A stretch of 64,000 nt of DNA from a virus. The notes under the pieces were generated by a model. That model was not told the origin of the DNA. It searched no databases and saw only the letters and a list, made by a program, of their open reading frames with translations. Positions 1,726 through 57,926 of the stretch are shown here, in pieces. The translations under genes and the position numbers were made by a program. Location of the stretch: IMG/VR virus record IMGVR_UViG_3300020122_000665, positions 1-64,000 of that record. One strand, 5' to 3'. The number at the start of each line of letters is the position of its first letter. Positions within the stretch are counted from its first letter, which is position 1.

Positions 1726-1895
1726 GCGTCCTCCGGCTCTGCCACAGCCGCGCACTGGAGGGCGTTCTTCGCCGACTCGAGCTCGCGCATGGCCGCTGCG
1801 ATTTCATCGTTTGCGGCGTCGCGCGCCTTCTCGGCCGCCTTGTACCTCTTGTTCGCGACGCGCACCCGCGCGGCCGCCTCGGCGAGCTTGCTCAT
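1722..1895 (-). CDS. Small coiled-coil protein (57 aa, MSKLAEAAARVRVANKRYK...)
   Basis: ATGA overlaps with both neighbours; translated by hand. Confidence 0.55.
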   Translation of the reverse strand: MSKLAEAAARVRVANKRYKAAEKARDAANDEIAAAMRELESAKNALQCAAVAEPEDA

Positions 1896-3433: not shown

Positions 3434-3541
3434 CGAACGCTCCTCGAAGAGTTGTGCTCGGGCCGGCGGGAGCCTCACGCGCGGGGAGGAGGGACCGCTT
3501 GTGCGGTTCCCGCCGGCTCCAGTTCCTGGCGCTCGCGCTCT

Positions 3542-6718: not shown

Positions 6719-7034
6719 CGGGCACACCTCCTCCAATCACCGGAGGTACAGCCGCGGTCACCTCCTCACGACAGTCGAGGCAGAATCGCGTCCAGCGTCG
6801 GCGCGCGCCCGCGTCGAACCGGCGACCCGAGAATCGGAGCCGCGCGTGGTCGCAGTACGCGGGGTGGATCTGCACCATGCGCGCGCGCATCGCGCCGCAG
6901 CGCGCGCACTCCATTTGGTTGGTGTCGATGCCACGCGGCGCGACGAACACGTAGCGGTGGCCGCACGCCGCGCAGTGCGCACGCCCGGCGAACCACTTCG
7001 CCCGCCGATCGTCGAGGCTCGCGACGTCACTCAT
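6696..7034 (-). CDS. Zinc-ribbon protein
   Basis: CAAC, CARC and CLDC motifs. Confidence 0.55.
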   Translation of the reverse strand: MSDVASLDDRRAKWFAGRAHCAACGHRYVFVAPRGIDTNQMECARCGAMRARMVQIHPAYCDHARLRFSGRRFDAGARRRWTRFCLDCREEVTAAVPPVIGGGVPDGPKPAV

Positions 7035-7242
7035 GGAGCTATGCAATAGTGCAAGAGTGCATTGTCGAGCCGCCGATCCCGCGAGTTCACCCGAGGAGCG
7101 CCGACGCCACGAAGAGCGCCGCGGCGATGAGCAGCGCTACTCCGAGTCGCCGCGCCGCGCGGGCCGACGCGCGGTCGGGCTTCCCTTCGTCGATGAGCCG
7201 CAGTTTCGCCGTCGGAGAATCGTCGCTCATGATTCGCTCCTA

Positions 7243-10441: not shown

Positions 10442-11755
10442 TCACGGGCTCCTCGCTTCCTCGGCGGCGACCTCGCGCGGCGGATCGATTCCCGGCCGCA
10501 TGTTCGTCTTTCCGAGCCTCGACGCGTGCCAGTTGCACGCCGCGGCGGCGACGGTGACGATGCGGTGCAGGCGCTTCTCCTCGCTGCCGCCCGGGTTGTG
10601 GAGCGCCTTGCTGGCGAGGAATCCGATCAGCCAGAGCCAATCGGCGTCCGTCTTGCCGACGTCGTGGTCGCTGCCCCACCGCTCGCGCTGGTGCGCGGCT
10701 TCGATCTCGACGGCGTGCGCGAAGTGGATGATCTCCGGCGCGTTGATCGTGGCCAGCAGCTCGCGGACGCGACTGCTCAGCCGCTCGCGCTCGTCCTCCG
10801 AGGCGGAGAGCATCTTCGCCGCGGCCTCTTCGCGCGCTATCGCGTCCGCCTCGCGCGTCACCATCCGCGCGGCGACGGCCGGCAGGTCGCTCCAATCGTG
10901 CATCGTGAGCTCGGCCGGCTCGCCTTTGAGGGCGGCCGCCGTCTTCGTCAGCAGCTCGTCCATGCGCTCGCGCAGATGGTCGGCCTCGTCGATGTGCAGC
11001 CGCGCCTCCGCCAGGTCGCGCTCGGCGGCGCGCGCTCGAGCTCGCCAATCGGCCGGCTTGCAGTCGGCCTCCGCCTTCGTCAGTGCATCGCCGACGACGT
11101 GCGCGTTCGCGGGAACGTGCGGCCGCGCCTCCTCGGGGCTCGCGCCGGCGTCGCGGGACGCGTGCCACGGCGCCCACGCGGCGGCGTGCGCCGCGGCCGC
11201 CGCGATGCGCTGACAGCCGGACTCGTCGCACCGCTCCGGCTCGGGGTGGGCGTCCGCCGCGCGCTCGTGCTCGACCACGCCATCGCGGTCGGGCTCGGCC
11301 CACTTGCGCGCCTTGTTCTTGGCGAGCTTCAGACGGAGGGCCACGAGGGGGTTGAGACCGAGGCGGTCGACGATGTAGAGCGCGAGCATCATCGTGTCCG
11401 CGCACTCCTCGGCGACGGACTCGGCGGTGTCGCCGATGCTGATGGCGCGCAGCACTTCGCGGGCCTCGCGCATCAGGTGGCGTGCCGCCGCCGCGGTGCG
11501 CTCTCCGGGGAAGGTCGCGCGGGCCCACTCGATGTGCTCCGTGACGAACGCTTCCCACTCGCCGCCGCGCTGCGCGCCGGCGGCGGTTGCGAAGGCGGCC
11601 GTTGCGCAGTCGCGACCGCAGTACAACTTGCCTTCGTGCGCGGCGCCAAAAAGACACAGCCCGTGGCCAGGCTCTATTTTGACAGAGCAGCGACTACACG
11701 TTCTCACGACGTCCTCCTCGATGCGTTCGCATTGCGAGCGCACATGCAGTTGCAT
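10442..11755 (-). CDS. DUF550/MazG-like dNTP pyrophosphohydrolase fused to a coiled coil and a second MazG-like domain
   Basis: EWARATFP...HLMREAREV...EECAD...KLAKNKARKW; C-terminal EAAHQRERWGSDHD...DWLWLI...IVTVAA. Confidence 0.65.
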   Translation of the reverse strand: MQLHVRSQCERIEEDVVRTCSRCSVKIEPGHGLCLFGAAHEGKLYCGRDCATAAFATAAGAQRGGEWEAFVTEHIEWARATFPGERTAAAARHLMREAREVLRAISIGDTAESVAEECADTMMLALYIVDRLGLNPLVALRLKLAKNKARKWAEPDRDGVVEHERAADAHPEPERCDESGCQRIAAAAAHAAAWAPWHASRDAGASPEEARPHVPANAHVVGDALTKAEADCKPADWRARARAAERDLAEARLHIDEADHLRERMDELLTKTAAALKGEPAELTMHDWSDLPAVAARMVTREADAIAREEAAAKMLSASEDERERLSSRVRELLATINAPEIIHFAHAVEIEAAHQRERWGSDHDVGKTDADWLWLIGFLASKALHNPGGSEEKRLHRIVTVAAAACNWHASRLGKTNMRPGIDPPREVAAEEARSP

Positions 11756-14375: not shown

Positions 14376-15251
14376 TCAGCCGTTCTTCGCGGCGTGCCGC
14401 GGCGGCGGTAGCGCGCGACGCGCCCCTCGCGCGCGACGCGATCGCTCGATAGGGCTCACTGGCCGCTCCGCCGGCGTCGGCTTCGAGATCCTCACCGCGG
14501 TCGTGAGCCTCTTGGGCGCGCGCCGATCCTCCTCCGCCATCCATCGCTGAAGCCGCTCCTTGAGCCTTGCGATCGAGCGCACCTCGATCTGGCGCACGCG
14601 CTCGCGTGATAGGTCGAGCTCGGTCGCGATCTCGTCGAGGAGTCGCCCTTCGGCGCGCTGAAGCAGGACGCGGCGCGCGCGGGGCTCCAAGGTGGCAAGA
14701 AGCCGCCGAAGGAGCGCCCGATTGTCGCTGGATTCGACTGCGGCGTCGGGCAGCGGCTGCGCGTCGTCCGCGAGCGTATCGGCGAGGATGAGCGGGGTAT
14801 CTCCCTTCCGCCACGCCCTCGCCGGGCCGCACAGGTCGCGCAGCATGTCGTCGCCGACGAGCCGCGCTACGCGATTCGCGGTCTTGAAGTCCTGCGCCTC
14901 GCCAGCGCCCCTGAGAATCGCACCGCGCCGGTCGATCAGGTGGGAGGGGACGCGAATCATCGCTCCCATGTCCTGCACATGGCGGCGCATCGCGTGGGTG
15001 ACCCAGTGCTGCGCGTACGTGAAGAACTTCACGCCGCGCGCCTCGTCGAATCGGCGCGCCGCCTCGCGCACTCCGAGGTTGCCCTCGGACACGAGGTCAT
15101 CGAACCCGATCGCGGCGCCGGAGCGCGGAAGCCAGTAGCGCGCCATCCTCATGACGAAGATCCGCATCTCCTTGATTCGCGCCGTCAGCTCCTCGTTCGA
15201 CACGTCGTGCTGCGGGCAGCGATCGTCGTCGAGCGCCGTCTCGTCGCTCAT
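14376..15251 (-). CDS. Phage sigma-70 family RNA polymerase sigma factor (RpoD/RpoH-like regions 2 and 4)
   Basis: DDLVSEGNLGVREAARRFDEARGVKFFTYAQHWV; LDEIATELDLSRERVRQIE. Confidence 0.9.
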   Translation of the reverse strand: MSDETALDDDRCPQHDVSNEELTARIKEMRIFVMRMARYWLPRSGAAIGFDDLVSEGNLGVREAARRFDEARGVKFFTYAQHWVTHAMRRHVQDMGAMIRVPSHLIDRRGAILRGAGEAQDFKTANRVARLVGDDMLRDLCGPARAWRKGDTPLILADTLADDAQPLPDAAVESSDNRALLRRLLATLEPRARRVLLQRAEGRLLDEIATELDLSRERVRQIEVRSIARLKERLQRWMAEEDRRAPKRLTTAVRISKPTPAERPVSPIERSRRARGARRALPPPRHAAKNG

Positions 15252-17195: not shown

Positions 17196-17558
17196 TCAGA
17201 CGCTCCTCAGCCGCCGCGGGGCCGGCACGGGCGGCGCCGGCGCTTCGCCCGCCGGATGCTCCCAACTGAAGCAGGCGAACCCGCTCTCGGCGTCCCGCCC
17301 CGTGATCGCGATGACGGCGGCCCACGGCACCTCGACTAGCGTCGGCGTGCGAGCGAACGAGAAGACACCGCGGAAGCCGCGCTCGTCGATGACGAAGTCG
17401 CCAATGGGGACCGGCAGATTGAGCCCGACGTCGAGGTGAACGTGCACCGCGCTGCGAAGCTCCTCCGGCATGACGACGCCGGGCAGCGGTGCGAACACGA
17501 CGCGGACGAGTGGCTCGTGTTGCAGGATGAACTCGAGCGCGGCCTGCTTGGCAACCAT
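17196..17558 (-). CDS. sspB: SspB-like ClpXP adaptor (stringent starvation protein B family)
   Basis: PGVVMPEEL...GLNLPVPIGDFVIDERGFRGVFSF...VPWAAVIAI core; C-terminal RRLRSV resembles the ClpX-binding LRVVK tail. Confidence 0.75.
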   Translation of the reverse strand: MVAKQAALEFILQHEPLVRVVFAPLPGVVMPEELRSAVHVHLDVGLNLPVPIGDFVIDERGFRGVFSFARTPTLVEVPWAAVIAITGRDAESGFACFSWEHPAGEAPAPPVPAPRRLRSV

Positions 17559-17568
17559 CGTTGGCACA

Positions 17569-17598
17569 GTGGTAACACCGCACTAGTGCAACTGTCAA
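17569..17598 (-). promoter_or_regulatory. Sigma70-type promoter with GCACTAGTGC operator in the spacer
   Basis: TTGACA-GTT-GCACTAGTGC (operator at 17580-17589). Confidence 0.7.
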
Positions 17599-20425: not shown

Positions 20426-20611
20426 ATGTTGGGACTGCCGATCGAGATCGCGATACCAGCGCTGCTCTTCTGGTTCTTCCTCACCGTGCTCCCGGTGGTC
20501 CTGCTGGCGAGGATCAGCCATTGGGCGTTCCACACGCAGCAGAAGCTCGACAGGGTGAATGCCACCCTAGCGATGGTGGTCGCGCAGCTCAAAGAAAACG
20601 GGCGAGGGTAG
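20426..20611 (+). CDS. Small membrane protein
   Basis: GGGAGG SD; long hydrophobic N-terminal half. Confidence 0.55.
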   Translation: MLGLPIEIAIPALLFWFFLTVLPVVLLARISHWAFHTQQKLDRVNATLAMVVAQLKENGRG

Positions 20612-20627
20612 CGGCACGCGATTCGCA
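20611..20627 (+). promoter_or_regulatory. Candidate sigma54 -24/-12 promoter
   Basis: CGGCACG-CGAT-TCGCA; GG (20613-14) and GC (20625-26) are 10 nt apart. Confidence 0.4.
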
Positions 20628-20641
20628 GGTGCGTTGCGGAC

Positions 20642-21136
20642 ATGACCAGCTCCGCAGTACACTCGCGTCAGATGGACGACGACCCGCAGCATCTTCTTGC
20701 CGAAGCGGTCAAGGCGAAGGAGAAGGCCGACGACGACGAGCGGAAGGCGATCATCGCCGCGCTCGAGCAAGCCAAGGGCAATGTGCTGCGCGCCGCGGAG
20801 CTCCTCGGCATCACCGGAACGCGAGCGGACGGGACTCCGACCGCGACCACCTTGCACAAGAAGATCGCCCGCTTCGGACTGCGCGACCTGGCGCGCGACC
20901 TGCGGCGGAAGTTGGATGGTTGGGACCGTGGGCACCCTCCCGAAACGGAGTACGACCCTGCGGCTCTGGCGCGTGCCTGGAGTGACTCGGGCCGTAGTCT
21001 GCCCGCTACCGCCGTTGCCATCGGACTGCGTGCGACGCAACGGAACGTGGTCCGTGACCTGCTGCACCGCTACGGCATACCGGACCCCCCTACGCCCCGC
21101 TCGCCGCGCCCGCCGCGCCGAAAGGGCCCCAAGTAG
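20642..21136 (+). CDS. Tandem Fis-type HTH DNA-binding protein
   Basis: ERKAIIAALEQAKGNVLRAAELLGI...TLHKKIARFGL, then a second degenerate copy ending ...LLHRYGI. Confidence 0.8.
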   Translation: MTSSAVHSRQMDDDPQHLLAEAVKAKEKADDDERKAIIAALEQAKGNVLRAAELLGITGTRADGTPTATTLHKKIARFGLRDLARDLRRKLDGWDRGHPPETEYDPAALARAWSDSGRSLPATAVAIGLRATQRNVVRDLLHRYGIPDPPTPRSPRPPRRKGPK

Positions 21137-21139
21137 TCC

Positions 21140-22131
21140 GTAGGCCCATCCGCGCGCGTGGGCCGCGCGCCATGCACCGCGCACGGCCCGTGTAAACAAC
21201 CGTTCACAGATGCTTCGCAAAGTGGGTTGGAAAACGCCCCACTCTCGGGCCAATCCGCCCCACTGTCCGCAATGCACCCTAATACCGCAGAGTTGCGGCG
21301 TGCGTTGCGGACGTTCTCAGTGTCAGTCAAGTGGCGTTTCGCCACACCGGTCGCACCGCGTCAATCGCTAAGTCCGTAACGCACGCCCTGGCGTGCGTTG
21401 GCATTCGCACTGCAATGCCCCGGTACGTCGGAACGCTGCAACGGTCGAAATTGACCCGCGCCGCGAAACGATAGTCGCGGCAAGGGCCGCGCGCGGTGCA
21501 GGGCCCACGTTGGGCACGCTTCACCCGGAAGTGATCCGCGGGGCGGACGCAACCGGCCGCAGTGGACCGAACGCAACCGGGCGCGCGCCGTCGGGCGCGC
21601 CTCAGTGGAAACGCCCTTGACCGGCGCAATGGCCGGAGAGAATGCGGGCCACGGTTGCACTCTGCCACGTCATCCGGGCGCTTGTGAGGCGCTCTCGTGC
21701 GTGGGTCCGTCACTGCGGTCGAAGGCGACAAGATCGGCTAGTCCCCTGTATGGGGTGCGCGGGGCGCCAAAGAAATGGGCGCCGACAACCGCGATGCATG
21801 GGTCCGAAACCATGCTCATCCGATCTGCCCAAACGAAAACGCGGACACGACCACTGCTCTTTCGTGACAACCGAATATCGCCGCCCCGTCGGTCGCGTCG
21901 CTGCGACGTCGGACGGGACCGGTAAATCGAACATCGATTCAACAGTGCGTCCGACGATACAAGGCCGTCGGGCGCACGATTGAGACGGTGTTTCAAACTA
22001 GGCGCGCGACGGGCCCACCGTCGCCGCCTCCGCGCATTCTCCCACGTCCATCCGTTTGTCGGCGCCCCCGGATCCCCCCCGTTCCGGCGCGCGCGCTGCG
22101 GATGGAGCGGACGTGGGGGAATGCGCGGAGG
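21140..22131 (+). ncRNA. Candidate large structured non-coding RNA; boundaries uncertain
   Basis: About 1 kb with no credible ORF; more than 15 hairpins, nested long-range helices, G-U pairs mostly favouring the plus strand. Confidence 0.55.
21398..21414 (+). promoter_or_regulatory. Candidate sigma54 -24/-12 promoter preceded by a 10-bp inverted repeat
   Basis: TTGGCATTCGCACTGCA (GG-N10-GC); AACGCACGCC-CT-GGCGTGCGTT at 21378-21399. Confidence 0.45.
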
Positions 22132-22139
22132 TGACCACT

Positions 22140-22250
22140 ATGTCGACGACCCTGCCCGACGGTCGCAAGATCCACGCGATCGACCTCTCCGAGAGCTCCA
22201 CCGCGAAGGAGGTGATCGCCCGCCGCGCGGCCGCGCGCGGCACGAAGTAG
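22140..22250 (+). CDS. 36-aa small protein
   Basis: GGAGGTGA SD before ATG 22140. Confidence 0.45.
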   Translation: MSTTLPDGRKIHAIDLSESSTAKEVIARRAAARGTK

Positions 22251-22483
22251 GCACGTCGGGGCTGCGACGGCCCGCCCGTCGCCGCCCCCCACGAGCGCCC
22301 CCGGTGTGGGGCGTTGGTGGGAGGTGACCTGATGCTCACCGTCGGAATGCGCCTCTGGCGCGCGCTCTTTGCGTGGATGGACGACGACATCGACCGCGAG
22401 TCGATGCGCTTCCTCTAGCGCGCAGTTCTCCGCAAATCGCTCCAGGGCGAGCGCACCGCTCGCCCCCTCCCCTGCATTTTCTA

Positions 22484-22512
22484 TTGACGGCCGCACTAGT
22501 GCGAGGCACAGT
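22484..22512 (+). promoter_or_regulatory. Sigma70-type promoter with GCACTAGTGC operator
   Basis: TTGACG-17 nt-CACAGT; operator at 22493-22502. Confidence 0.7.
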
Positions 22513-22549
22513 GTTTCATACGCAATACAAAAAGAAGGGGAGGATCGTC

Positions 22550-23302
22550 ATGAAGAAGAAGGAACCGGCCAAGAAAAAATCGCCGAAGCGCCCGCTGGCT
22601 CCGGCGGCTGCGCCGCCGAAGCTCACCGTGCCGCTCACGTCGCGCTACGACGGCCGCGTGTTGTACGCCGCAGAAATCGACGCCGACGTCGACGAGCTGC
22701 TCCGCACGCGCGTCGCCGTCGAGAAGGCCGTCGCCGCCGGGGCCAACCTCGCCGGGGCCAACCTCGACGGGGCCAACCTCGCCGGGGCCAACCTCGACGG
22801 GGCCAACCTCGCCGGGGCCAACCTCGCCCGGGCCAACCTCGCCGGGGCCTACCTCGCCCGGGCCAACCTCGCCGGGGCCAAGTCGCTGCCCCCGCCGTCG
22901 GTGATTCTGTCGGGGCACTGGGGAGAGGTTCCGGACGATCTCTGCACGGATCTGATGCGGTGGGATGCCGCGAACCACCCGGATCCGTCGGCCTTCGACC
23001 GATGGGCGAAGGGCGGCGCGTGCCCCTACGCCGGCATCGCGTTCGCGCGGGCGGCGAACTTCCACGAGCGGCGCGACCTCTGGTCCCCTGGCGCTCCGCC
23101 GCGCCCGTATGACCTCGCCATCCGCCTGATGGCCTGGGCCGCGGAGAACGCGAAGAAGGCTGGCATGGTCACCGTCCAGGCGGGAGACGAGAAGCTGCTG
23201 CCCGACGAGGCCCCGCCGTGCACCGACTGGCTCACCAGCGACCTGTACGCCGCTGTGACCTTCCGCGGCCGCGTCTGGCTCGCCAAGACGCGGGCGAAGT
23301 AG
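22550..23302 (+). CDS. Pentapeptide repeat protein
   Basis: Nine A(N/Y)L(A/D)(G/R) units; GGGGAGG SD. Confidence 0.85.
22741..22880 (+). repeat. 15-bp coding tandem repeat (pentapeptide units)
   Basis: GGCCAACCTCG(C/A)C(G/C)G about nine times. Confidence 0.9.
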
Positions 23303-23386
23303 TCCGACCGGAGCGGGCGACATCGTGTCGCCCCCTCCCCTCATGCGCCGTCTGTCGCACCGACGGCGTTTGAGGGGAGGCACGTC

Positions 23387-25345
23387 ATGTCTGCAACCAG
23401 CGAAGCCGCTTCGCCGGTTGCGCTCGATACCGAGCGCATCGGCGACGCGACCTACGATCCCGAGGACAACAAGCTGCGCATCCGCCCGTTCGCGCGCCTT
23501 CCCCGCGATCTCTACGATCGCGTGAAGGCCGCGGGCTTCTCGTGGGCTCCCAAACAGGAGCTCTTCGTGGCGCCGATGTGGACGCCGGAGCGCGCCGATC
23601 TCCTCGCGGAGTTGTGCGGCGAGATCGGCGACGAGGATACCTCGCTCGTCGACCGCGCGGAGGAGCGCGCCGATCGCTTCGGCGACTACTCCGACAAGCG
23701 GAAGGACGACGCCGAGACCGCGCGCCAGGCAATCGCCGCCATCGCGGATCACATTCCGCTCGGGCAGCCGATTCTCGTCGGACATCACAGCGAGAAGCAC
23801 GCCCGGAAGGACGCGGAGCGCATCGAGAACGGGATGCGCAAGGCCGTCAAAATGTGGGAGACCTCCCAATACTGGCAGAGGCGCGCCGCGGGCGCGCTCC
23901 GGCACGCGAAGTACAAGGAGCTGCCCGCGGTCCGCGCGCGCCGGATCAAGACCATCGAAGCCGACAAGCGCAAGCGCCAGCGGGAGACCGCCGACGCCGC
24001 GAGGCTGCTCAGGCTGTGGGGCTCGATCGAAGATCCCAAGTCGATCACCCGCAACGGCGAGCTCGTGTCGCTCAAAGAGCGGGCGATGTTCGTCGCGAAC
24101 CACGACCATATCCATCGGTCGTTTCCGCTGGCCGAGTATCCGCGGCAACCCCCGGCGTCGCAGTACGAGGGTCAGATGGGGCTCTGGTCGGCGCTCGACG
24201 GCGACGTGATCACGCCGGAGCAGGCGCGGGACATCGCGGTTCCGATCCACGAGCGCGGCAACGCGCGCCGGGCGCGCTGGATCGCCCACTACGATCTCCG
24301 CATCGCCTACGAGCGGGCGATGCTCGCCGACGCCGGCGGCACCGTCACCGACAAGAAGGGCCCCGAGAAGGGCGGCGCCTGTCGGTGTTGGGCGTCGCCG
24401 CGCGGCGGCTGGTCCTACATCCAGAAGGTCAACAGGGTGTCGGTCACCATCCTCGACAATTGGGACCGCGGCGATCCCTGTTTCAACCGCACCATCAAGT
24501 TCGAAGAAATCACTTCGATCATGACCGCGGCGGAGGTGAAGGCCGCGCGCGAGGACGGTCGGATCGCCGAGATCGACGATCGCGGATTCGCCCTGGCGGC
24601 GGAAGCTGCGCCGCGTCTGTCGGACGCGCCCGTGGCGCCCATCGACCACGCCTACGTCAACGACGGCACCGGCGACAACTGCGCGGAGCTGGTCGCCCAC
24701 CCCGCAAAGGAGTGGGTTCCGTGTGGGCATCCGAGGAGCGTCCACCGCTCGGTCACGCTCGACCCCACGCCGTTCGAAGCGATGAAAGCGTCGCTGAAAT
24801 CCGGCGTCAGAGTGGTTGCGGTCGATCAGCTGTTCGAGACGCCCGCCGACCTGGCGCGGCTCGTCGTCGAACGCGCCAACGTGCGCGGCCATTTCGTGCT
24901 CGAGCCGAGCGCCGGTCTCGGCGCGCTGGCCGGTGAGTGCTACCGCCAGGGCGCCGACGGCGTCATCTGCATCGAGAGGGCGCCCGCCTGCGCGGCGGCG
25001 CTGCGGCGCGGCCCCTTCGCGAAGGTGTGCGAGGCGGACTTTCTCCAGCTGCCCGTGCCCCCCTCCCCAGGGTGGTCGAAGTTCTACCGGATCGTGATGA
25101 ATCCGCCGTTTGCCGACGGGGCGGACGTGGCGCACGTGACGCGCGCCTACGAGTGGCTCGCGTCGGGCGGCCGGCTCGTCGCCATCATGTCCGCGTCGGT
25201 CAAGACCCGGCAGGACAAGCGCACCGCCGCCTTCCGGGCGATCGTCGACGGCTGCGGCGGCGAGATCGAAGACCTGCCGGAGGGCAGCTTCAAGGCGAGC
25301 GGCACGGGCGTCAACACGGTGCTCGTCACGCTCTATCGCGAGTAG
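23387..25345 (+). CDS. DUF3560 domain fused to an N6-adenine-type methyltransferase
   Basis: ATYDPEDNKLR and IPLGQPILVGHHSEKHARKD (DUF3560); VLEPSAGLG and IVMNPPF. Confidence 0.85.
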   Translation: MSATSEAASPVALDTERIGDATYDPEDNKLRIRPFARLPRDLYDRVKAAGFSWAPKQELFVAPMWTPERADLLAELCGEIGDEDTSLVDRAEERADRFGDYSDKRKDDAETARQAIAAIADHIPLGQPILVGHHSEKHARKDAERIENGMRKAVKMWETSQYWQRRAAGALRHAKYKELPAVRARRIKTIEADKRKRQRETADAARLLRLWGSIEDPKSITRNGELVSLKERAMFVANHDHIHRSFPLAEYPRQPPASQYEGQMGLWSALDGDVITPEQARDIAVPIHERGNARRARWIAHYDLRIAYERAMLADAGGTVTDKKGPEKGGACRCWASPRGGWSYIQKVNRVSVTILDNWDRGDPCFNRTIKFEEITSIMTAAEVKAAREDGRIAEIDDRGFALAAEAAPRLSDAPVAPIDHAYVNDGTGDNCAELVAHPAKEWVPCGHPRSVHRSVTLDPTPFEAMKASLKSGVRVVAVDQLFETPADLARLVVERANVRGHFVLEPSAGLGALAGECYRQGADGVICIERAPACAAALRRGPFAKVCEADFLQLPVPPSPGWSKFYRIVMNPPFADGADVAHVTRAYEWLASGGRLVAIMSASVKTRQDKRTAAFRAIVDGCGGEIEDLPEGSFKASGTGVNTVLVTLYRE

Positions 25346-28781: not shown

Positions 28782-29495
28782 ATGATCTTCGAACTCGACT
28801 CCGACCTATCACGTCGAGATACGACGTGGGAGAAGGCGCGCTACCTCGAGCAGCTCCCGCTCGGCGCCGCGCCCGGATCGCGCGGGTGGGTCCACCGCTC
28901 GCTCCGCCTCCGCATCGCGGAGTCTCGCGCCGACTGCGCGCTCGCCGCCGACATCGTGAAGCACCGCCACTACCACCGAAAGTGGCCCTGCCCGCCGAAG
29001 ACGCTGATGATGAGCTACCTCTCCAGCCTCGACGGCGTCGGCGGGCTCGACGCCGCGGGCCTCGTGTCCGTGGCGCTGCTGCCCAACCGCTACCACGTGC
29101 GCGAGGCGCTCGGACTCTCGCAGCTCGAGTGCCTGACGCTGGTTCGCATGTGGCGCGCCGACGACCTCGTGCCGACGATCGCGCCCGATCTCACGCCGGA
29201 GACGCTCCGCCGCGTCGTGCGCGGCGAGAGAAACCGCGGCCCGCTGCGCGGGGTGCGCGACGAGTGGATCGCGCGCAAGTGCCGCGCGGACGGGCTGCGC
29301 GCCGCGCCTCGCCTGCTCGCCACCTACGCCGATCCGGCGCTCGGGCACGACGGCGCGACCTACGTCGCCGCTGGCGCCGTCGACTGCGGCCGCGCGCGCT
29401 GCGGGAAGCTGCTCTTCGCGTGGGGGCTCGACGAGGAGACCCGCAACAACCTGGCCGCGCTCGGGCGCGCCGTCGCCGAAAGGACCGCCGCATGA
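28782..29495 (+). CDS. Mom-like GNAT-fold DNA modification protein
   Basis: HRHY...LTLVRMW...LATYADPALGHDGATYVAAG matches the Mom-family SYAD..GH.G.IY.A pattern. Confidence 0.65.
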   Translation: MIFELDSDLSRRDTTWEKARYLEQLPLGAAPGSRGWVHRSLRLRIAESRADCALAADIVKHRHYHRKWPCPPKTLMMSYLSSLDGVGGLDAAGLVSVALLPNRYHVREALGLSQLECLTLVRMWRADDLVPTIAPDLTPETLRRVVRGERNRGPLRGVRDEWIARKCRADGLRAAPRLLATYADPALGHDGATYVAAGAVDCGRARCGKLLFAWGLDEETRNNLAALGRAVAERTAA

Positions 29496-29706
29496 GACCG
29501 ATCTACTTCAGCGCATCGATCTCCATCCCCTGGTGGAAGCACAAGCGGAAACCGCTGTTTCACCACGAGCCGGCGAACGTCCTCCGCAGCGGGCTCACGA
29601 TGTCGCAGCCCTCGTCGCACATCCACGTCGGCCCCCTTCACATCGGAATCGTGTGGCGCGAGTCCGACGAGGCGAAGGCGAAGCGCCTCGTCGAGGCGGA
29701 AAGCCG

Positions 29707-31746
29707 ATGAAGTCGAAACCGAAGCGCGCGACGCGTCGGCCGCCGATGCTACGCCTGCACACCGAAGATCTGGTGATCGACAACTTCGCCGGCGGCGGCG
29801 GCGCCAGCCTCGGTATCGAGTGGGCGCTCGGCCGCTCGCCGGACATCGCGGTCAACCACGATCCCGAGGCGCTCGCGATGCACGCCGCCAACCACCCCGA
29901 CACGAAGCACCTCTGCGAGTCGGTGTGGGATGTCGACCCGCGGAAGGTGTGCGGCGACAAGCAAGTCGAGCTCGCGTGGTTCTCGCCAGATTGCACATAC
30001 CATTCAAAAGCCCGAGGCGGAAAGCCCTTCCGCGATCGCAACAAGGCGCGCCGCCGGCGCGGCCTCGCCTGGGTCGTCGTTCGATGGGCCGAGGCGAGGA
30101 AACCCCGGCTAATCATGCTCGAGAACGTCGAGGAGTTCGAGGATTGGGGGCCGCTCCTCGACGACGGCACGCCCGACAAGACTCGCGCCGGGTTCACCTT
30201 CCGTCGGTGGGTCGCGCGCCTCCGCAACCTCGGCTACGACGTCGACTGGCGCCAGCTCCGCGCGTGCGACTACGGCGCGCCGACGACGCGCAAGCGGCTC
30301 TTCCTGATCGCGCGCTGCGACGGGCTTCCGATCGTGTGGCCCGAGGCGACGCACGCCCCGCCGGCGGTCGCCGCGGCGAAGGGCCTCAAGCCCTACCGCA
30401 CCGCCGCCGAGTGCATCGACTGGTCGATCCCCTGCCCGTCGATCTTCCTCACCAACGCCGAGGGCAAGAAGATCGGCGTGAAGCGGCCGCTCTCCGACAA
30501 CACGCTGCGGCGCATCGCGCGAGGCATCAAGAAGTTCGTCCTCGACGCCAAGGACCCATTCATCGTCCCCGATGCCGACCGCCGGCCGAAAGCGATGGTT
30601 CCATTCATCGCGCCTGTTTCGCACACCGGCGTCCGACCGAGCGGCACCAGCGTCGACGCTCGCGTGCATTCGATCAACGAGCCACTCCCGACGGTCACCG
30701 GAGCGCGCCGCGGCGAGAAGGCGCTCGTGCAGCCATTCCTCACGCCGGTCAAGACGTGGGGCGGCGGCGGCAACGAGCCGCGCTCCATCAACGAGCCGAT
30801 GCGGACCACGACCACGTCGAAGCGTGGAGAGCACGCCATCGTCGCGCCGCTCCTCGCGCGCATCGGGCAAACCGGCGGAAACGGCGACTACTCGAACGAC
30901 GCGCGCACCCCGCTCACCACCGTCACCACAAAGGCGGAGCACCTCCTCATCGCGCCGACGCTGATCCAGACCTCCTACGGCGAGCGCAAGGGCCAGAAGC
31001 CGCGCACGCTCGACCTGCACGCGCCGCTCGGCACCGTCGTCGGGCAGGGAGTGAAGCACTCGGTCGTCTCCGCATTCCTGGCGAAGCACTACGGCGGCCC
31101 GGGCGTGGAGCGCATCACCAAGCAGCCGGCCGGGACGTCGATGGATGCGCCGGTCGACACCATCACACAGCGCGACCACCACACGGTCATCGAGGCGCAG
31201 CTCGAGCCCTGGCTCGACGACCACGACAACACGGACCCCGACGGGGCCGAATACGAGGGTGGATTCTTCGGGCCCACCATCGAAGCCTCGCATTTGGTCC
31301 ACCTGCGCGGTGGCGTCGACGACCACCCCAACACCGCGCAGGCCGTCGAGGAGCCGCTGCCGACGGTCACGGCGAACGGGAACCACATCGCCGAGGTCCG
31401 CGCGCTGCTGATCAAATACTACGGCACCGACCAGGACCCGCAGCTCGGCGAGCCGCTCCACACCGTCACCACCAAGGACCGCTTCGCGCTGATCGTGACG
31501 ATCCACGGCGTCGACTACGAGATCGTCGACATCGGAATGCGGATGCTCTCGCCGCGCGAGCTCTTCCGCGCGCAGGGCTTCCCCGACTCCTACGACATCG
31601 AGTCGGAGTGGGAAGGCGTGAAGCTCACCAAGACCTCGCAGGTCCGCATGTGCGGCAACGCGGTAAGCCCCGTCATGTCGGAGGCGCTGGCGAAGGCGAA
31701 CTACGTCCGTCGGATGGGCGATCTCGCCGCCGGATGCGTGTCCTGA
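29707..31746 (+). CDS. dcm: DNA (cytosine-5) methyltransferase
   Basis: DNFAGGGG, FSPDC, MLENV, DYGAPTTRKR, GNAV; long variable region with repeated EPLPTVT units. Confidence 0.92.
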   Translation: MKSKPKRATRRPPMLRLHTEDLVIDNFAGGGGASLGIEWALGRSPDIAVNHDPEALAMHAANHPDTKHLCESVWDVDPRKVCGDKQVELAWFSPDCTYHSKARGGKPFRDRNKARRRRGLAWVVVRWAEARKPRLIMLENVEEFEDWGPLLDDGTPDKTRAGFTFRRWVARLRNLGYDVDWRQLRACDYGAPTTRKRLFLIARCDGLPIVWPEATHAPPAVAAAKGLKPYRTAAECIDWSIPCPSIFLTNAEGKKIGVKRPLSDNTLRRIARGIKKFVLDAKDPFIVPDADRRPKAMVPFIAPVSHTGVRPSGTSVDARVHSINEPLPTVTGARRGEKALVQPFLTPVKTWGGGGNEPRSINEPMRTTTTSKRGEHAIVAPLLARIGQTGGNGDYSNDARTPLTTVTTKAEHLLIAPTLIQTSYGERKGQKPRTLDLHAPLGTVVGQGVKHSVVSAFLAKHYGGPGVERITKQPAGTSMDAPVDTITQRDHHTVIEAQLEPWLDDHDNTDPDGAEYEGGFFGPTIEASHLVHLRGGVDDHPNTAQAVEEPLPTVTANGNHIAEVRALLIKYYGTDQDPQLGEPLHTVTTKDRFALIVTIHGVDYEIVDIGMRMLSPRELFRAQGFPDSYDIESEWEGVKLTKTSQVRMCGNAVSPVMSEALAKANYVRRMGDLAAGCVS

Positions 31747-33665: not shown

Positions 33666-34408
33666 TCGTCCTCGCCCTCCTCCTATGCATCCCGCCCGCG
33701 ATCGAGCACGAGCACCGGGGCCTCCTCAAGCACCGCGCCGCGTCCGAGCAGCCGCCCGTGCGCGTGACCGTCGCCGAGATGCTGGCGTGGCCCGATCCCG
33801 CTGGCGCCTCGGACAAGCGCGTGCGCGCGAGCCAGGAGCCGATCGACGAGCACGAGCGCACGGTGTACGTGCTCGAAGGCGTGGTGGAGCTGGTGCGGCG
33901 GGAGAAGGACTGCGACCTGCACATCGAACTGAGCGAAGGAGCGAGCGATGGATTACGAGAAAGCGCCAGCCGCGACGTGCGAACACGGCATCACAGCGCC
34001 GAACTGGTGCCTACGGTGCGCGGCCGGTGCGGAGCGACGAATCCGATGCAAGCGCGGCCAGTGCGCGCACTGCGGGGGCGATCTACTGGGCAGGAGTTGC
34101 CGTCAGTGCGGCATTCTGAACGATGCTTGCGGAGAGTGCGAGCGCTGCCGCAAACCATAATCGTCGAAATCCCCGGCGAGCTGCACCTCCCTCGCGTGCG
34201 CCGTGGCGATCGCGTGCGCGTCGTCGGGTGGGGGTTCTTCGACGGGGCGCATACGTGGCAGGGGAGGGCCACGCCGTGGGAGCTGCATCCGGTTTGGTCG
34301 GTGAAGAAGCTATCGGATCCGCTTCTTCCCCATCGCTGGCGTCATTCGTGGAGCGCTCGCAAGAAGGTCGCCACCAGGCGACGCGTAGCGCTTCCGCCGT
34401 CCCTCTGA
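33662..34408 (+). CDS. Exported OB-fold-like protein with an in-frame insertion
   Basis: Signal-like N-terminus; DCDLHIEL, IIVEIP, VRVVGWGFFD..H and WELHPV motifs. Confidence 0.55.
   Translation: MIVLALLLCIPPAIEHEHRGLLKHRAASEQPPVRVTVAEMLAWPDPAGASDKRVRASQEPIDEHERTVYVLEGVVELVRREKDCDLHIELSEGASDGLRESASRDVRTRHHSAELVPTVRGRCGATNPMQARPVRALRGRSTGQELPSVRHSERCLRRVRALPQTIIVEIPGELHLPRVRRGDRVRVVGWGFFDGAHTWQGRATPWELHPVWSVKKLSDPLLPHRWRHSWSARKKVATRRRVALPPSL
33948..34160 (+). CDS. Nested Cys-rich 70-aa ORF in a different frame
   Basis: AAGGAG SD; several CxxC pairs (CLRC, CAHC, CRQC, CGEC/CERC). Confidence 0.5.
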   Translation: MDYEKAPAATCEHGITAPNWCLRCAAGAERRIRCKRGQCAHCGGDLLGRSCRQCGILNDACGECERCRKP

Positions 34409-35419
34409 TTCTTGCTCCACAAGAATCGGACGTTCTGCGGCGAGCCGGATCCGGTAGCAGTTGCCCTCCTTCCGCTCCGCCGGCGACTTGACCTCCTCGA
34501 CGGGAATCCCTTCGGTCCTCATCGTCGCCAGCCACTGATAGACCTGCGGCCGGCTACGCCCGACGAGGCGCGCGAGCGAACGCACGGTCTTCGGCCCGGC
34601 GAGGAGCGCGACGATCACCTGCGACATCGCCGCCGCCGCGCTCTTGCGCCGCTTCTCCTCCTTCGCCGCCGTCGGGTCGGGCTTCGCCCACGGCAACAGC
34701 TCGCGCAGGCGCTCCTTGCCCTTCATCTCGATCTGGCGCACGCGCGTCGGGTGCAATCGATCGCCGGCCGCCGACGTCACGCCGACCGCCTTCAGGTCGA
34801 CGCCGTCCGCGCGCTCGAGCAGCACCTGGCGCTCGCGCGCCGGAAGGCGGTCTACCGCGCGACGCACGAGCACACCCTCTTGCGCGCGCACCGCCGCCGT
34901 CTCCGAGCTCTCCGCATCGTCGGCGATCGTGTCCCCGAGGGGTCGCCCATCGGCGCCGTGCACCGGGGCGTCCATCGCCGCGTCCGACGCCATGCGCAGC
35001 CGTGCCGCCGTGTTCGCGCCATCCGCCGTCGCCGGATCCGCGCGCCGCAGGGCCTTCTCGACCCGCTGCGGCGACGACAGGATGTCGATCGGCAGCTTCA
35101 TCGCGCGCGCGTTCTCGGTGACCCACCGCTGCATCGCCCGCAGGACAGGCTTCGAGAAGTAGCTCAGCGGCGACACGCCGCGCGCCGGGTCGAACGTGGG
35201 CGCCGCCTCCATGATCGCGATCGCTCCCTCGGAGTCGAGGTCGTCGATCGCCGCGTCGGGGAGGCCGAGCTTCAGGAACTGCCGCGCGCGCCGGCGGCGG
35301 AACCCCTGCGTCGCCGCCAGCACCGCGCCCATCGCGTCCTTGTCTCCCTCGCGGAGCCGCGCGAGGATGGCGACGAGGCGCTCCGACAGCTCGCCGCCCG
35401 CCTGCTGCTGCTGCGTCAC
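34310..35419 (-). CDS. Second phage sigma-70 family factor with an extra C-terminal HTH
   Basis: DDLDSEGAIAIMEAAPTFDPARG; LPARERQVL...TRVRQIE; C-terminal TVRSLARLVGRSRPQVYQWL. Confidence 0.8.
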   Translation of the reverse strand: MTQQQQAGGELSERLVAILARLREGDKDAMGAVLAATQGFRRRRARQFLKLGLPDAAIDDLDSEGAIAIMEAAPTFDPARGVSPLSYFSKPVLRAMQRWVTENARAMKLPIDILSSPQRVEKALRRADPATADGANTAARLRMASDAAMDAPVHGADGRPLGDTIADDAESSETAAVRAQEGVLVRRAVDRLPARERQVLLERADGVDLKAVGVTSAAGDRLHPTRVRQIEMKGKERLRELLPWAKPDPTAAKEEKRRKSAAAAMSQVIVALLAGPKTVRSLARLVGRSRPQVYQWLATMRTEGIPVEEVKSPAERKEGNCYRIRLAAERPILVEQESEGRRKRYASPGGDLLASAPRMTPAMGKKRIR

Positions 35420-38026: not shown

Positions 38027-39415
38027 CTACTGCAGGTGCGGCGGCGGCTCACCGCCGGCGAGGTTCTCGAATCGCGTGTACGCGTTCAGGAAGGCGAGCT
38101 TCACCGTCCCCGTCGGGCCGTTGCGCTGCTTGCCGATGATGATCTCGGCGACGCCCTTGTCCGGCGACTCCTTGTCGTAGACCTCGTCGCGGTAGATGAA
38201 GGCGATCACGTCGGCGTCCTGCTCGATCGCACCGCTCTCGCGCAGGTCCGACAGCTGCGGCCGTTTGTCGGCGCGCGACTCGACGCCGCGGTTGAGCTGC
38301 GACAGCGCGAGGATCGGCACGCGCAACTCCTTCGCGAGCGCCTTCAGGCCGCGGCTGATCTCGGAGATCTCGCGCTCGCGGTTCTGCTCGCGCTTCCCCT
38401 CCGCCTGGCGACCGTGAATGAGCTGCAGGTAGTCGACGACGATCATTCCCTGCTGACGGTCGACGGTGAAAATATCCGGGTCAGAGCGCCACCGACGGGA
38501 CCTCGCGCGGATCTCGAGTAGCGTCGGAGAACCAGAGTCGTCGATCCAGATCGGCGCCTCGGAGATTCGGCTCGCCGCCCTGGTGATGTTGATCCAGTCG
38601 CGCTGCTCGAGCATCCCGCAGCGCAGGCGCGTCGCGTCGACGCGCGCCTCGCAGCACACCATTCGCTCGACGAGCGACTCCTTCGACATCTCGAGCGAGA
38701 AGACCAGCACCGGCACGCCGAACTCGATGGCGGCATTCTGCGCCGTGTTCATCACCAGCGAGGTCTTCCCCATCGACGGGCGCGCGGCGATGATCACGAG
38801 ATCGGCGGGCTGGAACCCGGCGGTGAGCGCGTCGAGCTTGTGGTAGCCCGACGGCACGCCCGTAATCGCCTGCTTGCGGTCGTAGCGCGACTCGAGCGCC
38901 TTCACCGTGCTGCCGAGGATCTTCTTGACGGGGTGGTAGGAGCTTCTCTGCGCGCGCTGCGCGATCTCGAACACCGCGCGCTCCGCCTCGTCGACGAACT
39001 CGTCGACGTCGCCGTAGTCGCCGTAGCCCTTAGCGGCGATCTCCTGCGACGCCTCGATGAGGCGGCGCGCCGTCGCCTTGCCCTGCACGATGCGCGCATG
39101 GAAGGCGATGTTCTCGACAGTGACGACGGCGCTCGTCAGCTCGGAGAAGTAGGCCTCGCCGTTGAACGCCTTCAGCTCCGTGTACGAGTCGTTGGCGCGC
39201 ATCTGCTCGGCGACGGTGATCTGATCGATCGGCTTCGACGCCGCGTCGAGCTCGATGAACGCTTTGTAAATCGCCCGGTGGAGCGGGTGGTGGAAGTCCT
39301 CTGGAACGACCACGTCGGAGACCTGGCTGAAGGCCTTCGCGTAGAGCAGCACACCGCCGAGGACGGAGACCTCGGACTCGTGGCTGTAGGGGAGCACTCG
39401 TCGAGTGGGATTCAT
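38027..39415 (-). CDS. dnaB: Replicative DNA helicase
   Basis: AARPSMGKT, FSLEM, VDYLQL, LSQLNR, SDLRESGAIEQDAD, KQRNGPTG. Confidence 0.96.
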   Translation of the reverse strand: MNPTRRVLPYSHESEVSVLGGVLLYAKAFSQVSDVVVPEDFHHPLHRAIYKAFIELDAASKPIDQITVAEQMRANDSYTELKAFNGEAYFSELTSAVVTVENIAFHARIVQGKATARRLIEASQEIAAKGYGDYGDVDEFVDEAERAVFEIAQRAQRSSYHPVKKILGSTVKALESRYDRKQAITGVPSGYHKLDALTAGFQPADLVIIAARPSMGKTSLVMNTAQNAAIEFGVPVLVFSLEMSKESLVERMVCCEARVDATRLRCGMLEQRDWINITRAASRISEAPIWIDDSGSPTLLEIRARSRRWRSDPDIFTVDRQQGMIVVDYLQLIHGRQAEGKREQNREREISEISRGLKALAKELRVPILALSQLNRGVESRADKRPQLSDLRESGAIEQDADVIAFIYRDEVYDKESPDKGVAEIIIGKQRNGPTGTVKLAFLNAYTRFENLAGGEPPPHLQ

Positions 39416-40308
39416 TTCTTCTCCTGCTTCAGGCCGCTGGACTTGCGCAAGTTCGCGAGGATCTCCTCCGCCGGTGGAACCGGCTTCACGGGACGCGCGT
39501 CGGCGCGCTCGCGCTCCGTCTCCTCGTGCGTCTTGTGAGCGCGCGCCGGAGCGACGGTGGTAGCGGCGGCGGCCGGGATGACGTCGAGGTAGTCGCGCCA
39601 GCAGCCCATGAACGTTGCAAAGTGCTTGATGAACTTCACCTCGACGCCGCGCATCCCGGCGGCATAGTTCGCCACCGCCTTCCGCAGCGACTGGTAGTCC
39701 GCCTCCTTCGAGATCTGCTCTCGACAGAGCTTCATCCCGCGCGTCTTGCCCTCCTTGCGCGGGTAGAGCGAGTAGACCGCATCGAAGTCGAACTTCGGCG
39801 CTCGAGTCTGTCCTGAGAGCAGCGCAGCTTGAGGACTCGCGCTCTCTGTGTTTGTAGAAGAAGCTGCAACAGCAACTGCAACAGCAACTGCAGGGGAATG
39901 CGTTTCCGATGCAGGAGCACTGCGCCCGCTTTGATCCTGCACATGCGAAACTGATGCGTTCGCATGAGCGTCCCACCGGACCTTTGCGGCTCTCGTGTTC
40001 TTTTCCCGCTTATCCTCCTGCCGTTTTCTCTCAGCCTCCATCCGCGCCGAGACGAGACGATTCGTCGAGGAATCGTGGACGAAACGGTCGCCAATCTTCT
40101 TCCAAACGGGCCGGAAACGGTTGAGGTGCAGCCGACAAATCTCCGCCAAAGACACCTCGTCTGTCGGCAACCCGCCCTCGCGCCAGGCGAAGCAGAGGAG
40201 GTCGACGAACACCCCTTTCGCCTCGTGCCCGGCGAGGCTCATCTTCAGGTCGGCGAGCCAGTCGGCGGCGTAGAACGGGAACGCCGGCGCCTTTCCTTCG
40301 CGCGCCAC
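39412..40308 (-). CDS. Phage replication initiator (DUF1376/YdaU-like N-terminus)
   Basis: APAFPFYAADWLAD...KGVFVDLLCFAW; C-terminal YPRKEGK...KHFATF; directly upstream of dnaB. Confidence 0.8.
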   Translation of the reverse strand: MAREGKAPAFPFYAADWLADLKMSLAGHEAKGVFVDLLCFAWREGGLPTDEVSLAEICRLHLNRFRPVWKKIGDRFVHDSSTNRLVSARMEAERKRQEDKREKNTRAAKVRWDAHANASVSHVQDQSGRSAPASETHSPAVAVAVAVAASSTNTESASPQAALLSGQTRAPKFDFDAVYSLYPRKEGKTRGMKLCREQISKEADYQSLRKAVANYAAGMRGVEVKFIKHFATFMGCWRDYLDVIPAAAATTVAPARAHKTHEETERERADARPVKPVPPAEEILANLRKSSGLKQEKK

Positions 40309-43736: not shown

Positions 43737-43765
43737 CAGTTAGCCTGCACTAGTGCAGCGGTCAA
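43737..43765 (-). promoter_or_regulatory. PR-like promoter with GCACTAGTGC operator
   Basis: TTGACC-GCT-GCACTAGTGC (43747-43756). Confidence 0.7.
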
Positions 43766-43816
43766 TCTTATTTTTGAAGTTGCATCGTGAACATGACCTA
43801 TGGCACGGTGTACTAC

Positions 43817-44663: not shown

Positions 44664-44821
44664 CCCGCCATCTCCCCGCAGATGAATCAAAAGTAATCGA
44701 TAGTCCCACACCCGCGTCGCTTCCGTCGGTCAGCCCCCATACACATCACATAAACGAAGCCGAAGCACGTCCTACGTGTGATGCCGTTTGGATCTTTCTT
44801 GGCTAGCTCGAACGATTCTTA

Positions 44822-44850
44822 TTGACTGCTGCACTAGTACGAGTTAGCTT
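44822..44850 (+). promoter_or_regulatory. PL-like promoter with GCACTAGTAC operator
   Basis: TTGACT-17 nt-TAGCTT; operator at 44831-44840. Confidence 0.75.
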
Positions 44851-57799: not shown

Positions 57800-57838
57800 T
57801 GCGCCAGCATTGCATTCGCATATGCGAACGCACGGCCC

Positions 57839-57860: not shown

Positions 57861-57926
57861 GGTGGTGCCCCCGAGGAGCGCTGACGACGCCTTCGTCGGC
57901 AAAGCCCGCAGCCGCCATGAGACAGA

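What the first reader, a model, noticed from the sequence alone, without database searches (positions are those of the whole stretch)
21140..22131. About 1 kb densely structured non-coding element: candidate new large phage ncRNA
This is the only long gene-free stretch in a tightly packed genome. Seen helices: 21173-21189 with 21484-21500; 21265-21277 with 21300-21312; 21557-21575 with 21698-21718, enclosing several hairpins including a GAAA loop; 21731-21737 with 21820-21826, enclosing a multibranch domain; 21945-21956 with 21966-21977; 22027-22049 with 22109-22131; and many short hairpins separated by A-rich linkers. Most imperfect pairs are G-U on the plus strand, which favours RNA-level selection. 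I do not recognise tRNA, tmRNA, RNase P or group II intron motifs. Size and phage context recall GOLLD/ROOL-class RNAs, but I cannot assign it. With the Fis-like gene, sigma54 motifs and downstream micro-ORFs it may form an undescribed RNA-based module. An ssDNA-structured origin or promoter is the alternative.
Basis: partly seen in the sequence, partly recalled or inferred. Interest (0 to 1): 0.82.

Follow-up and report, generated by a model that had tools for sequence, protein, structure and literature searches.

The report
Hairpin-rich regulatory spacer in a phage
A 1-kb gene-free stretch in an otherwise unknown soil phage is real and full of hairpins, but it looks like a patchwork of protein-binding sites, a promoter and a folded messenger leader, not one large new RNA.

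Summary
The stretch 21140-22130 is truly non-coding. It lies in the longest run without codon periodicity in the 85-kb virus record. It folds far better than shuffles (z about -8 on +, -7 on -; six coding controls +1.4 to -3.2).

The excess sits at the two ends:
- The 5' third (z -4.9 +, -6.4 -) is strand-symmetric. It holds three of four copies of a 13-mer found only around the Fis-type HTH gene and a sigma54-like -24/-12 element.
- The 3' fifth (z -9.5 +, -5.2 -) favours the + strand. It ends in a short hairpin plus a hairpin that buries the Shine-Dalgarno site, a module repeated before four genes.
- The central 400 nt folds like coding DNA (z -2.6 +, -1.3 -).

Long-range helices are no better than chance. 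G-U pairs show no strand bias overall (27 vs 31). Rfam gives nothing. No homologue was found, so covariation is untestable.

Best reading (0.45): a composite control region with operators, a promoter and a folded + strand leader. A single large ncRNA is unsupported but not excluded. The scan noted no look-alike on other DNA.

The parts
20613..20627 (+). Sigma54-like -24/-12 element (GG-N10-GC) just upstream of the Fis-type gene, which has no Shine-Dalgarno site
   Evidence: One of only 2 matches to GGCAY-N5-YYGCA in 64 kb on both strands. The pattern was chosen after seeing the sites; 1.32 matches are expected anywhere. Sequence.
20629..20641 (-). Copy 1 of the 13-mer GTCCGYAAYGCAC (operator-like), ending at the ATG of the Fis-type gene
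   Evidence: 4 matches with 1 mismatch or fewer in 64 kb, 0.44 expected, 0 of 100 shuffles with 4 or more.
20642..21136 (+). Gene for a 164-aa protein with Fis/NtrC-type HTH (HTH_8) and no AAA+ domain. A second HTH-like unit is seen by eye.
   Evidence: Pfam HTH_8 at E 1.6e-7, 31.4 bits against a cut-off of 22. Translation. Only itself among 1005 candidates from 5.8 billion proteins.
21143..21164 (+). 7-bp hairpin 7 nt after the stop codon of the Fis-type gene, with no U tract
   Evidence: No terminator-like site on the + strand in the scan.
21265..21312 (.). Inverted pair of the 13-mer (21265-21277 on +, 21300-21312 on -), 22 nt apart.
   Evidence: It folds equally well on both strands (z -5.0 / -5.6).
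21372..21402 (.). 13-mer copy (21372-21384 on +) plus a weaker inverted copy (about 21390-21402). Together they make a palindrome at 21378-21399 with 9 paired bases in the MFE.
   Evidence: Symmetric fold z -2.6 / -2.6.
21400..21414 (+). Second sigma54-like -24/-12 element. The predicted start near 21425 is inferred.
   Evidence: The only match to TGGCAY-N5-YTGCW in 64 kb (0.15 expected, 13 of 100 shuffles with 1 or more). Second of the 2 matches.
21425..21928 (+). Central non-coding stretch, the putative untranslated leader. Only two local domains exceed shuffles modestly: 21570-21662 and 21728-21829.
   Evidence: 21521-21928 has z -2.6 (+) and -1.3 (-). 21570-21662 has z -3.5 (+) and -1.65 (-). 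21728-21829 has z -3.1 and -2.6. 21830-21924 has z -0.7 and -0.3.
21929..21993 (+). Long irregular hairpin of 25 pairs with 4 G-U, favoured on the + strand
   Evidence: z -6.9 on + against -4.2 on -. Pairs listed.
22006..22024 (+). Short 7-bp hairpin with a 5-nt loop, the first half of the two-hairpin module
22027..22131 (+). Long hairpin whose 5' arm (CCUCC...) pairs with the GGAGG Shine-Dalgarno site of the 36-aa ORF
   Evidence: 22003-22142 folds at -100.3 kcal/mol, z -9.0 on + against -4.0 on -. 23-bp stem.
22140..22250 (+). 36-aa ORF with a strong SD and high third-position GC
22255..22418 (+). Second two-hairpin module and a 28-aa ORF (22332-22418)
22440..22549 (+). Third module. Between its anti-SD and SD arms lies a sigma70-type promoter with the palindromic operator GCACTAGTGC (22484-22512), ahead of the pentapeptide-repeat gene.
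   Evidence: The same TTGAC-N4-GCACTAGTGC also stands at 17580 (-), 43747 (-) and 44822 (+).

Best explanation
The 1-kb gap is a composite control region of a temperate, orphan, high-GC phage. It is not one RNA gene. It reads as three parts.

(1) 21140-21425 is regulatory DNA. Four copies of a 13-mer (GTCCGYAAYGCAC) sit just before and after the gene for a DNA-binding-domain-only Fis/NtrC-type HTH protein. I infer that this protein binds them. One copy covers the predicted start of its own, apparently leaderless, message, which would give autorepression. One inverted pair lies about 115-160 bp upstream of a second sigma54-like -24/-12 element (21400-21414), and another pair abuts it, like enhancer or operator sites.

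(2) From about 21425, a + strand transcript would run through about 500 nt of weakly structured leader.

(3) It would then enter strongly folded RNA: a long hairpin (21929-21993), a short hairpin (22006-22024) and a 105-nt hairpin that buries the ribosome-binding site of a 36-aa ORF. This last two-hairpin design recurs before the next three genes. It resembles the phage Mu mom leader, where a small protein binds a short hairpin next to a translation-inhibiting stem.

Shown: the stretch is non-coding; the repeats exist and cluster; the fold excess lies where stated and has the stated strand bias; the SD sites are paired in the predicted folds. Inferred: that the Fis-type protein binds the 13-mers, that the sigma54-like sites fire, that the leader is transcribed, and that a factor opens the hairpins.
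For: Non-coding. Fold excess by part: 5' part z -4.9 (+) and -6.4 (-); centre -2.6 and -1.3; 3' part -9.5 and -5.2. 13-mer: 4 of 4 matches (1 mismatch or fewer) in 64 kb lie within 20629-21384, with 0.44 expected and 0 of 100 shuffles reaching 4; a further weak copy lies near 21390. Sigma54-like elements: the only 2 matches to GGCAY-N5-YYGCA in 64 kb are at 20613 and 21400, both on the + strand and both in non-coding DNA next to a 13-mer. The Fis-type gene has no SD before its ATG and carries HTH_8. Two-hairpin modules: four 5' regions fold the same way with different sequences, z -9.0, -3.6, -5.4 and -5.5 on +. The shared TCGCCSCCYCC occurs only at those 4 places in 64 kb. The 3' hairpins carry 9 G-U pairs on + and lose 7-15 kcal/mol on the - strand. 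The pentapeptide operon has its own promoter/operator at 22484, so the gap plus the micro-ORFs form a separate unit. Mu analogy: Com binds a short hairpin proximal to the translation inhibition structure of mom mRNA and promotes translation (PMC6483171, abstract and passages read).
Against: No transcript data exist. No homologue exists, so nothing is tested by conservation. Both sigma54-like patterns were written after the sites had been seen. Taken alone they are weak: 13 of 100 and 40 of 100 shuffles reach the observed counts somewhere in the window. The second sigma54-like site is also the 5' arm and loop of a small hairpin (21400-21419), so it could be chance. The host is unknown, so it may lack sigma54. 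A protein with only a DNA-binding domain cannot activate sigma54. No sigma70-type promoter of standard quality was found in the gap (0; one weak candidate at 21445), so the start of any leader is uncertain. A 700-nt leader for a 36-aa ORF is odd and leaves the central 500 nt without a stated role.
Confidence: 0.45

Rival explanations
1. A stand-alone large structured RNA of a new class, several hundred to about 1000 nt, is made from the + strand and acts in trans, as proposed for GOLLD and ROOL.
For: It is the largest non-coding stretch of the genome. The whole stretch folds with z about -8 on +, stronger than on -. The + ensemble is better defined than the - ensemble (diversity 142 against 285). 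Two central domains fold modestly better than shuffles on +. It sits in a phage.
Against: No Rfam family reaches threshold; the best hit inside the stretch is 18.2 bits against a gathering score of 85. Long-range helices equal the best in shuffles. The centre folds like coding controls. The 5' third is strand-symmetric and made of repeated 13-mers. The 3' end belongs to a cis-regulatory module repeated before four genes. G-U counts show no strand bias overall. One coding control has an even lower ensemble diversity, 107. No tRNA lies nearby. No terminator-like site lies on +. No homologue is available for covariation.
Confidence: 0.13
2. A DNA-level site for replication or partition. The 13-mers would be iterons flanking the gene of their binding protein, as iterons flank repA in P1-type replicons (recalled). 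The AT-richer islands would serve as an unwinding element.
For: Repeats flank a DNA-binding protein gene on both sides. The 5' part is strand-symmetric. AT-richer islands at 21193-21234 and 21923-21962 fall in the lowest 0.2% of 40-nt windows for GC. The phage has a DnaB helicase 46-47% identical to P1 Ban.
Against: There are only 4-5 copies, in mixed orientation. The protein is a small HTH_8 protein with no initiator family hit. The replication genes lie 17 kb away. The most AT-rich intergenic DNA of the genome is at 43762-43801 and 44787-44826. The phage has an integrase, so it need not replicate as a plasmid. This reading does not explain the + strand RNA hairpins.
Confidence: 0.1
3. Mostly functionless spacer. 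It would be decayed remains of lost early genes and their leaders. Hairpins at the edges would be a terminator after the Fis-type gene and the leader of the micro-ORF.
For: The centre folds no better than coding DNA. No family, repeat or motif was found in 21425-21925. The hairpins at 21890-21921 and 21929-21993 look like a two-hairpin module without an SD or ORF behind it; this is my reading.
Against: Phage genomes rarely keep 1 kb of useless DNA, and this one has no other gap over 600 nt. No trace of coding periodicity or protein similarity is left. GC content is kept near the genome value.
Confidence: 0.17
4. An ssDNA-structured origin or hairpin promoter, such as N4-type promoters or plasmid leading-region promoters.
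For: Many hairpins. The downstream genes resemble anti-restriction genes: pentapeptide repeat, DUF3560, methyltransferase.
Against: This is a tailed dsDNA phage with portal, head protein and integrase. The largest gene called in the record is 737 aa, too short for a giant virion RNA polymerase; the size such an enzyme needs is recalled. The 3' hairpins prefer RNA pairing rules on one strand.
Confidence: 0.02

Closest known systems
Phage Mu com-mom leader (Com-binding hairpin next to the translation inhibition structure)
   Same: A short hairpin is followed at once by a stem that hides the start signals of the next gene, in an operon of DNA-modification and anti-restriction genes. A weak Mom-like gene lies 6 kb downstream (24.4 bits, below the cut-off of 27.1). 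Architecture from PMC6483171 (abstract and passages).
   Different: Here the design occurs four times in a row. No Com homologue was identified, and no binding was tested. This explains only 22006-22131 of the finding.
Sigma54 promoters with upstream enhancer sites bound by NtrC-family proteins through a Fis-type HTH
   Same: GG-N10-GC elements. An inverted pair of sites lies about 115-160 bp upstream. A protein with the HTH_8 domain typical of these activators is encoded next door. The layout of such promoters is recalled from textbook knowledge.
   Different: The phage protein has no AAA+ or receiver domain, so it cannot itself activate. One site overlaps the -24 element and another overlaps the predicted start, as repressor sites do. 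The host and its sigma54 are unknown.
GOLLD and ROOL large ornate RNAs
   Same: Several hundred nt, non-coding, in a phage. ROOL averages 581 nt, and both are often in prophages (PMC5737381, passages read).
   Different: No match to any Rfam model. No tRNA nearby, whereas both classes are often near tRNAs. No support for multistem long-range architecture beyond chance. High GC. No relatives.
Left-end early regions of T7-like phages (non-coding leader with early promoters before an anti-restriction gene; recalled)
   Same: A long non-coding stretch stands before genes of anti-restriction type. In IMG/VR many pentapeptide-repeat homologues lie at the very ends of 37-45 kb contigs.
   Different: Here the stretch is internal. 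The pentapeptide gene has its own repressor-controlled promoter. No strong sigma70 promoters lie in the gap.

Membership tests
GOLLD / ROOL / other Rfam large ncRNAs | Match to the family covariance model at or above its gathering score | tested here: not met
   0 matches at gathering thresholds in the whole 64-kb window. With E<=10 on 20900-22700 there were 6 chance-level hits, the best inside the stretch at 18.2 bits against a gathering score of 85.
GOLLD / ROOL / other Rfam large ncRNAs | Conserved complex fold with covariation across homologues (ROOL: six multistem junctions, three pseudoknots; PMC5737381) | not testable with these tools
   No homologous DNA in phages, plasmids, 73 fetched loci or the scan's own index.
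GOLLD / ROOL / other Rfam large ncRNAs | Frequent neighbourhood of tRNA genes (typical, not strictly defining) | tested here: not met
   ARAGORN finds 0 tRNA or tmRNA genes in the 64-kb window.
Structured RNA in general (fold beyond composition) | MFE significantly below dinucleotide shuffles, on the transcribed strand more than on the other | tested here: inconclusive
   Met for 21925-22142 (z -9.5 on +, -5.2 on -). Reversed for 21140-21520 (-4.9, -6.4). Weak for the centre (-2.6, -1.3). Long-range pairs equal chance.
Sigma54-dependent promoter | GG at -24 and GC at -12 with 10-nt spacing in a TGGCAC-N5-TTGCW-like context (consensus recalled) | tested here: met
   TGGCATTCGCACTGCA at 21399-21414 and CGGCACGCGATTCGCA at 20612-20627. 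The patterns were chosen after seeing the sites.
Sigma54-dependent promoter | Dependence on sigma54 and an AAA+ enhancer-binding activator | not testable with these tools
   The host is unknown. The phage HTH_8 protein has no AAA+ domain. The phage's own two sigma genes are of the sigma70 family.
Mu Com/TIS-type translational control | Short hairpin directly 5' of a stem that pairs the SD or start of the regulated gene | tested here: met
   Predicted folds of 22003-22142, 22255-22335, 22440-22553 and 23303-23390. Shared TCGCCSCCYCC junction.
Mu Com/TIS-type translational control | A small zinc-finger RNA-binding activator (Com) that binds the short hairpin | not tested
No Com-like gene was searched for.
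Iteron-type replication origin | Several directly repeated binding sites next to an initiator gene and an AT-rich unwinding element | tested here: inconclusive
   4-5 copies in mixed orientation. No initiator family on the neighbouring protein. AT-richer islands are present but are not the genome's richest.

The most novel reading that the evidence does not exclude
The roughly 700 nt from the sigma54-like promoter (about 21425) to the first micro-ORF are made as one + strand RNA. Its folded domains (21570-21662, 21728-21829, 21929-21993, 22006-22131) would form a new, family-less phage riboregulator or stand-alone RNA. It would be switched on at an enhancer-type promoter that a phage-made protein consisting only of an NtrC/Fis DNA-binding domain competes for. 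This would be a phage circuit that taps the host's sigma54 signalling to time anti-defence genes.
Probability: 0.15. Interest if true: 0.65.

Novelty: new member of a known kind. Interest (0 to 1): 0.3.

Why it matters
If the composite reading holds, the stretch is an ordinary, unusually long phage control region. Its value lies in the details. One is a DNA-binding-domain-only Fis/NtrC-type protein with its own clustered sites and sigma54-like promoters. The other is a fourfold Mu-Com-like module that hides ribosome-binding sites, in a phage with no sequenced relatives. If instead a discrete large RNA is made here, it would be a new high-GC phage ncRNA class outside Rfam. The present data do not favour that. 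The practical lesson for the scan: in a 68% GC genome, a whole-region fold z-score and long-range helices seen by eye overstate the case. Splitting the region into parts and testing both strands removed most of it.

Tried and rejected
Homologue hunting, all blank or unusable:
- blastn (distant mode) of 21100-22200 against phages and plasmids gave no match.
- The Fis-type protein found nothing in IMG/VR and only itself among 5.8 billion proteins.
- The portal found nothing in IMG/VR. The best GenBank phage match is 31.7% identity, and only 4 records matched.
- The radical-SAM neighbour found nothing in IMG/VR as a single protein or as an alignment and nothing in genome contigs. Two short metagenome contigs (L076, L077) show no synteny.
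- Five radical-SAM relatives at 48-51% identity exist, four on Logan contigs of 39, 22, 26 and 6 kb and one on a 3-kb JGI contig.
- The DUF3560 protein gave 12 loci (L005-L016). They share only that gene; L014 also shares a methyltransferase. They have no DNA similarity to the stretch.
- The 1.1-1.5 kb 'gaps' I first saw upstream in those loci were artefacts of my crude gene filter. A periodicity test found no low-periodicity run of 450 nt or more in L007, L008 and L014, and only 510-570 nt runs upstream of the gene in L009, L011, L015 and L016.
- The pentapeptide protein gave 59 loci. nhmmer and blastn of the stretch against all 73 fetched loci (869,044 nt) found nothing.
- Motif scans for relatives: the operator palindrome had 0 hits in viral contigs. 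The promoter/operator pattern had 4 single hits in viral contigs, all at 51-53% GC and unrelated. It had 14 single hits across unrelated taxa in genome contigs. These are chance.

Sequencing runs: one soil-metagenome run was listed with a 0.05 share of words, and no RNA holder was listed. Laid, it gave two identical 151-nt contigs at 20448-20598 and 20685-20835 and no cover over 21204-22004. This says nothing about expression, ends or habitat.

Other dead ends:
- No tandem repeats beyond 9-nt GC runs.
- PDB sequence search of the Fis-type protein gave nothing significant; the best E was 0.047, to an unrelated protein.
- The ESM Atlas gave only HTH_8 leads under 0.9.
- Ensemble diversity favours + (142 against 285), but controls span 107-297, so I dropped it as evidence.
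- attP was rejected: the integrase lies at 56.8-57.8 kb with its own short non-coding stretch beside it.
- A packaging site was rejected only by distance from the portal and the presumed terminase at 2-6 kb. This is inference.
- The paper supplements of PMC5737381 were not opened. They hold the ROOL alignments and would not change the Rfam result.
Full report
What the window is. The window is bases 1-64000 of an 85,475-bp IMG/VR virus record. The record is classed linear and about 84% complete, with 68.5% GC. It is a tailed phage. It has a portal at 1895-3478 (-), a major head protein at record 80651-81763 (-), a DnaB-type helicase at 38030-39976 (-) and a large DNA methyltransferase at 29533-31743 (+). 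It also has a tyrosine integrase at about 56.8-57.8 kb and two sigma70-family sigma genes. It has no close relatives. The portal finds nothing in IMG/VR and at best 31.7% identity in GenBank phages.

Surroundings of the finding. Third-position GC was used to tell real genes from chance ORFs.
- To the left, a radical-SAM gene runs leftward (Pfam 29.3 bits, just under the cut-off of 29.5).
- Rightward come a 61-aa ORF (20426-20611) and a 164-aa protein with a Fis-type HTH_8 domain (20642-21136).
- Then comes the gap.
- After it lie a 36-aa ORF (22140-22250) and a 28-aa ORF (22332-22418), both with GGAGG sites and coding-type periodicity.
- Next are a pentapeptide-repeat protein (22550-23302) and a DUF3560 protein whose C-terminal part matches methyltransferase-annotated PHROGs (23387-25345).

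Noticed in passing
window 17580-17598 (-), 22484-22502 (+), 43747-43765 (-), 44822-44840 (+); weaker copies near 7034-7061: A promoter/operator class, TTGAC-N4-GCACTAGTGC: a -35-like box followed by a perfect 10-bp palindrome. It stands at the head of four operons. The pattern gave 8 matches with 3 mismatches or fewer against 0.8 expected. It probably marks the repressor-controlled early promoters of this temperate phage.
   Followed up: partly
window 4500, 5992, 6743, 9419, 19001, 20373 (all -), 28744 (+), and 4 one-mismatch copies: GCTGTACCTC occurs 8 times exactly and 11 times with 1 mismatch or fewer, against 2.0 expected. At the one copy I inspected, before the radical-SAM gene, it lies on the coding strand about 18 nt before the SD-led ATG near 20355. 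It may be a site for one of the phage sigma factors or an RNA signal.
   Followed up: partly
window 22255-22335, 22440-22553, 23303-23390: Three further copies of the module with a short hairpin plus an SD-hiding hairpin lie before consecutive genes. They share the architecture of the Mu Com/mom leader.
   Followed up: partly
window 10445-11755 (-): A 437-aa protein carries a dATP/dGTP pyrophosphohydrolase domain (PF04447, 35.1 bits against a cut-off of 23). From recall, this family is known in phages that replace a DNA base. With the Mom-like hit at 28782-29492 (below cut-off) and the methyltransferases, it hints at DNA modification.
   Followed up: no
window 14379-15251 (-), 34313-35419 (-), 17199-17567 (-): Two phage-encoded sigma70-family sigma factors, and a weak SspB-like hit (25.4 bits against a cut-off of 27).
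   Followed up: no
loci L023, L024, L028, L034, L040, L047, L049, L051, L055, L057 and others: Many pentapeptide-repeat homologues sit at the very ends of 37-45 kb IMG/VR contigs. This would fit a first-entering, anti-restriction-type gene in T7-size phages.
   Followed up: no
window 56786-57799 (+) and 57751-58110: A tyrosine integrase (PF00589, 63.7 bits) with a 360-nt low-periodicity stretch beside it. This is the likely attP region, so the phage is probably temperate.
   Followed up: no
record 82501-83100 (outside the window): The second-longest low-periodicity stretch of the genome (600 nt), upstream of the head gene block.
   Followed up: no
window 20426-20611 (+): A 61-aa ORF with a strong SD and coding-type periodicity begins about 70 nt from the divergent radical-SAM start. 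Its function is unknown; the only Pfam hit is below cut-off.
   Followed up: no
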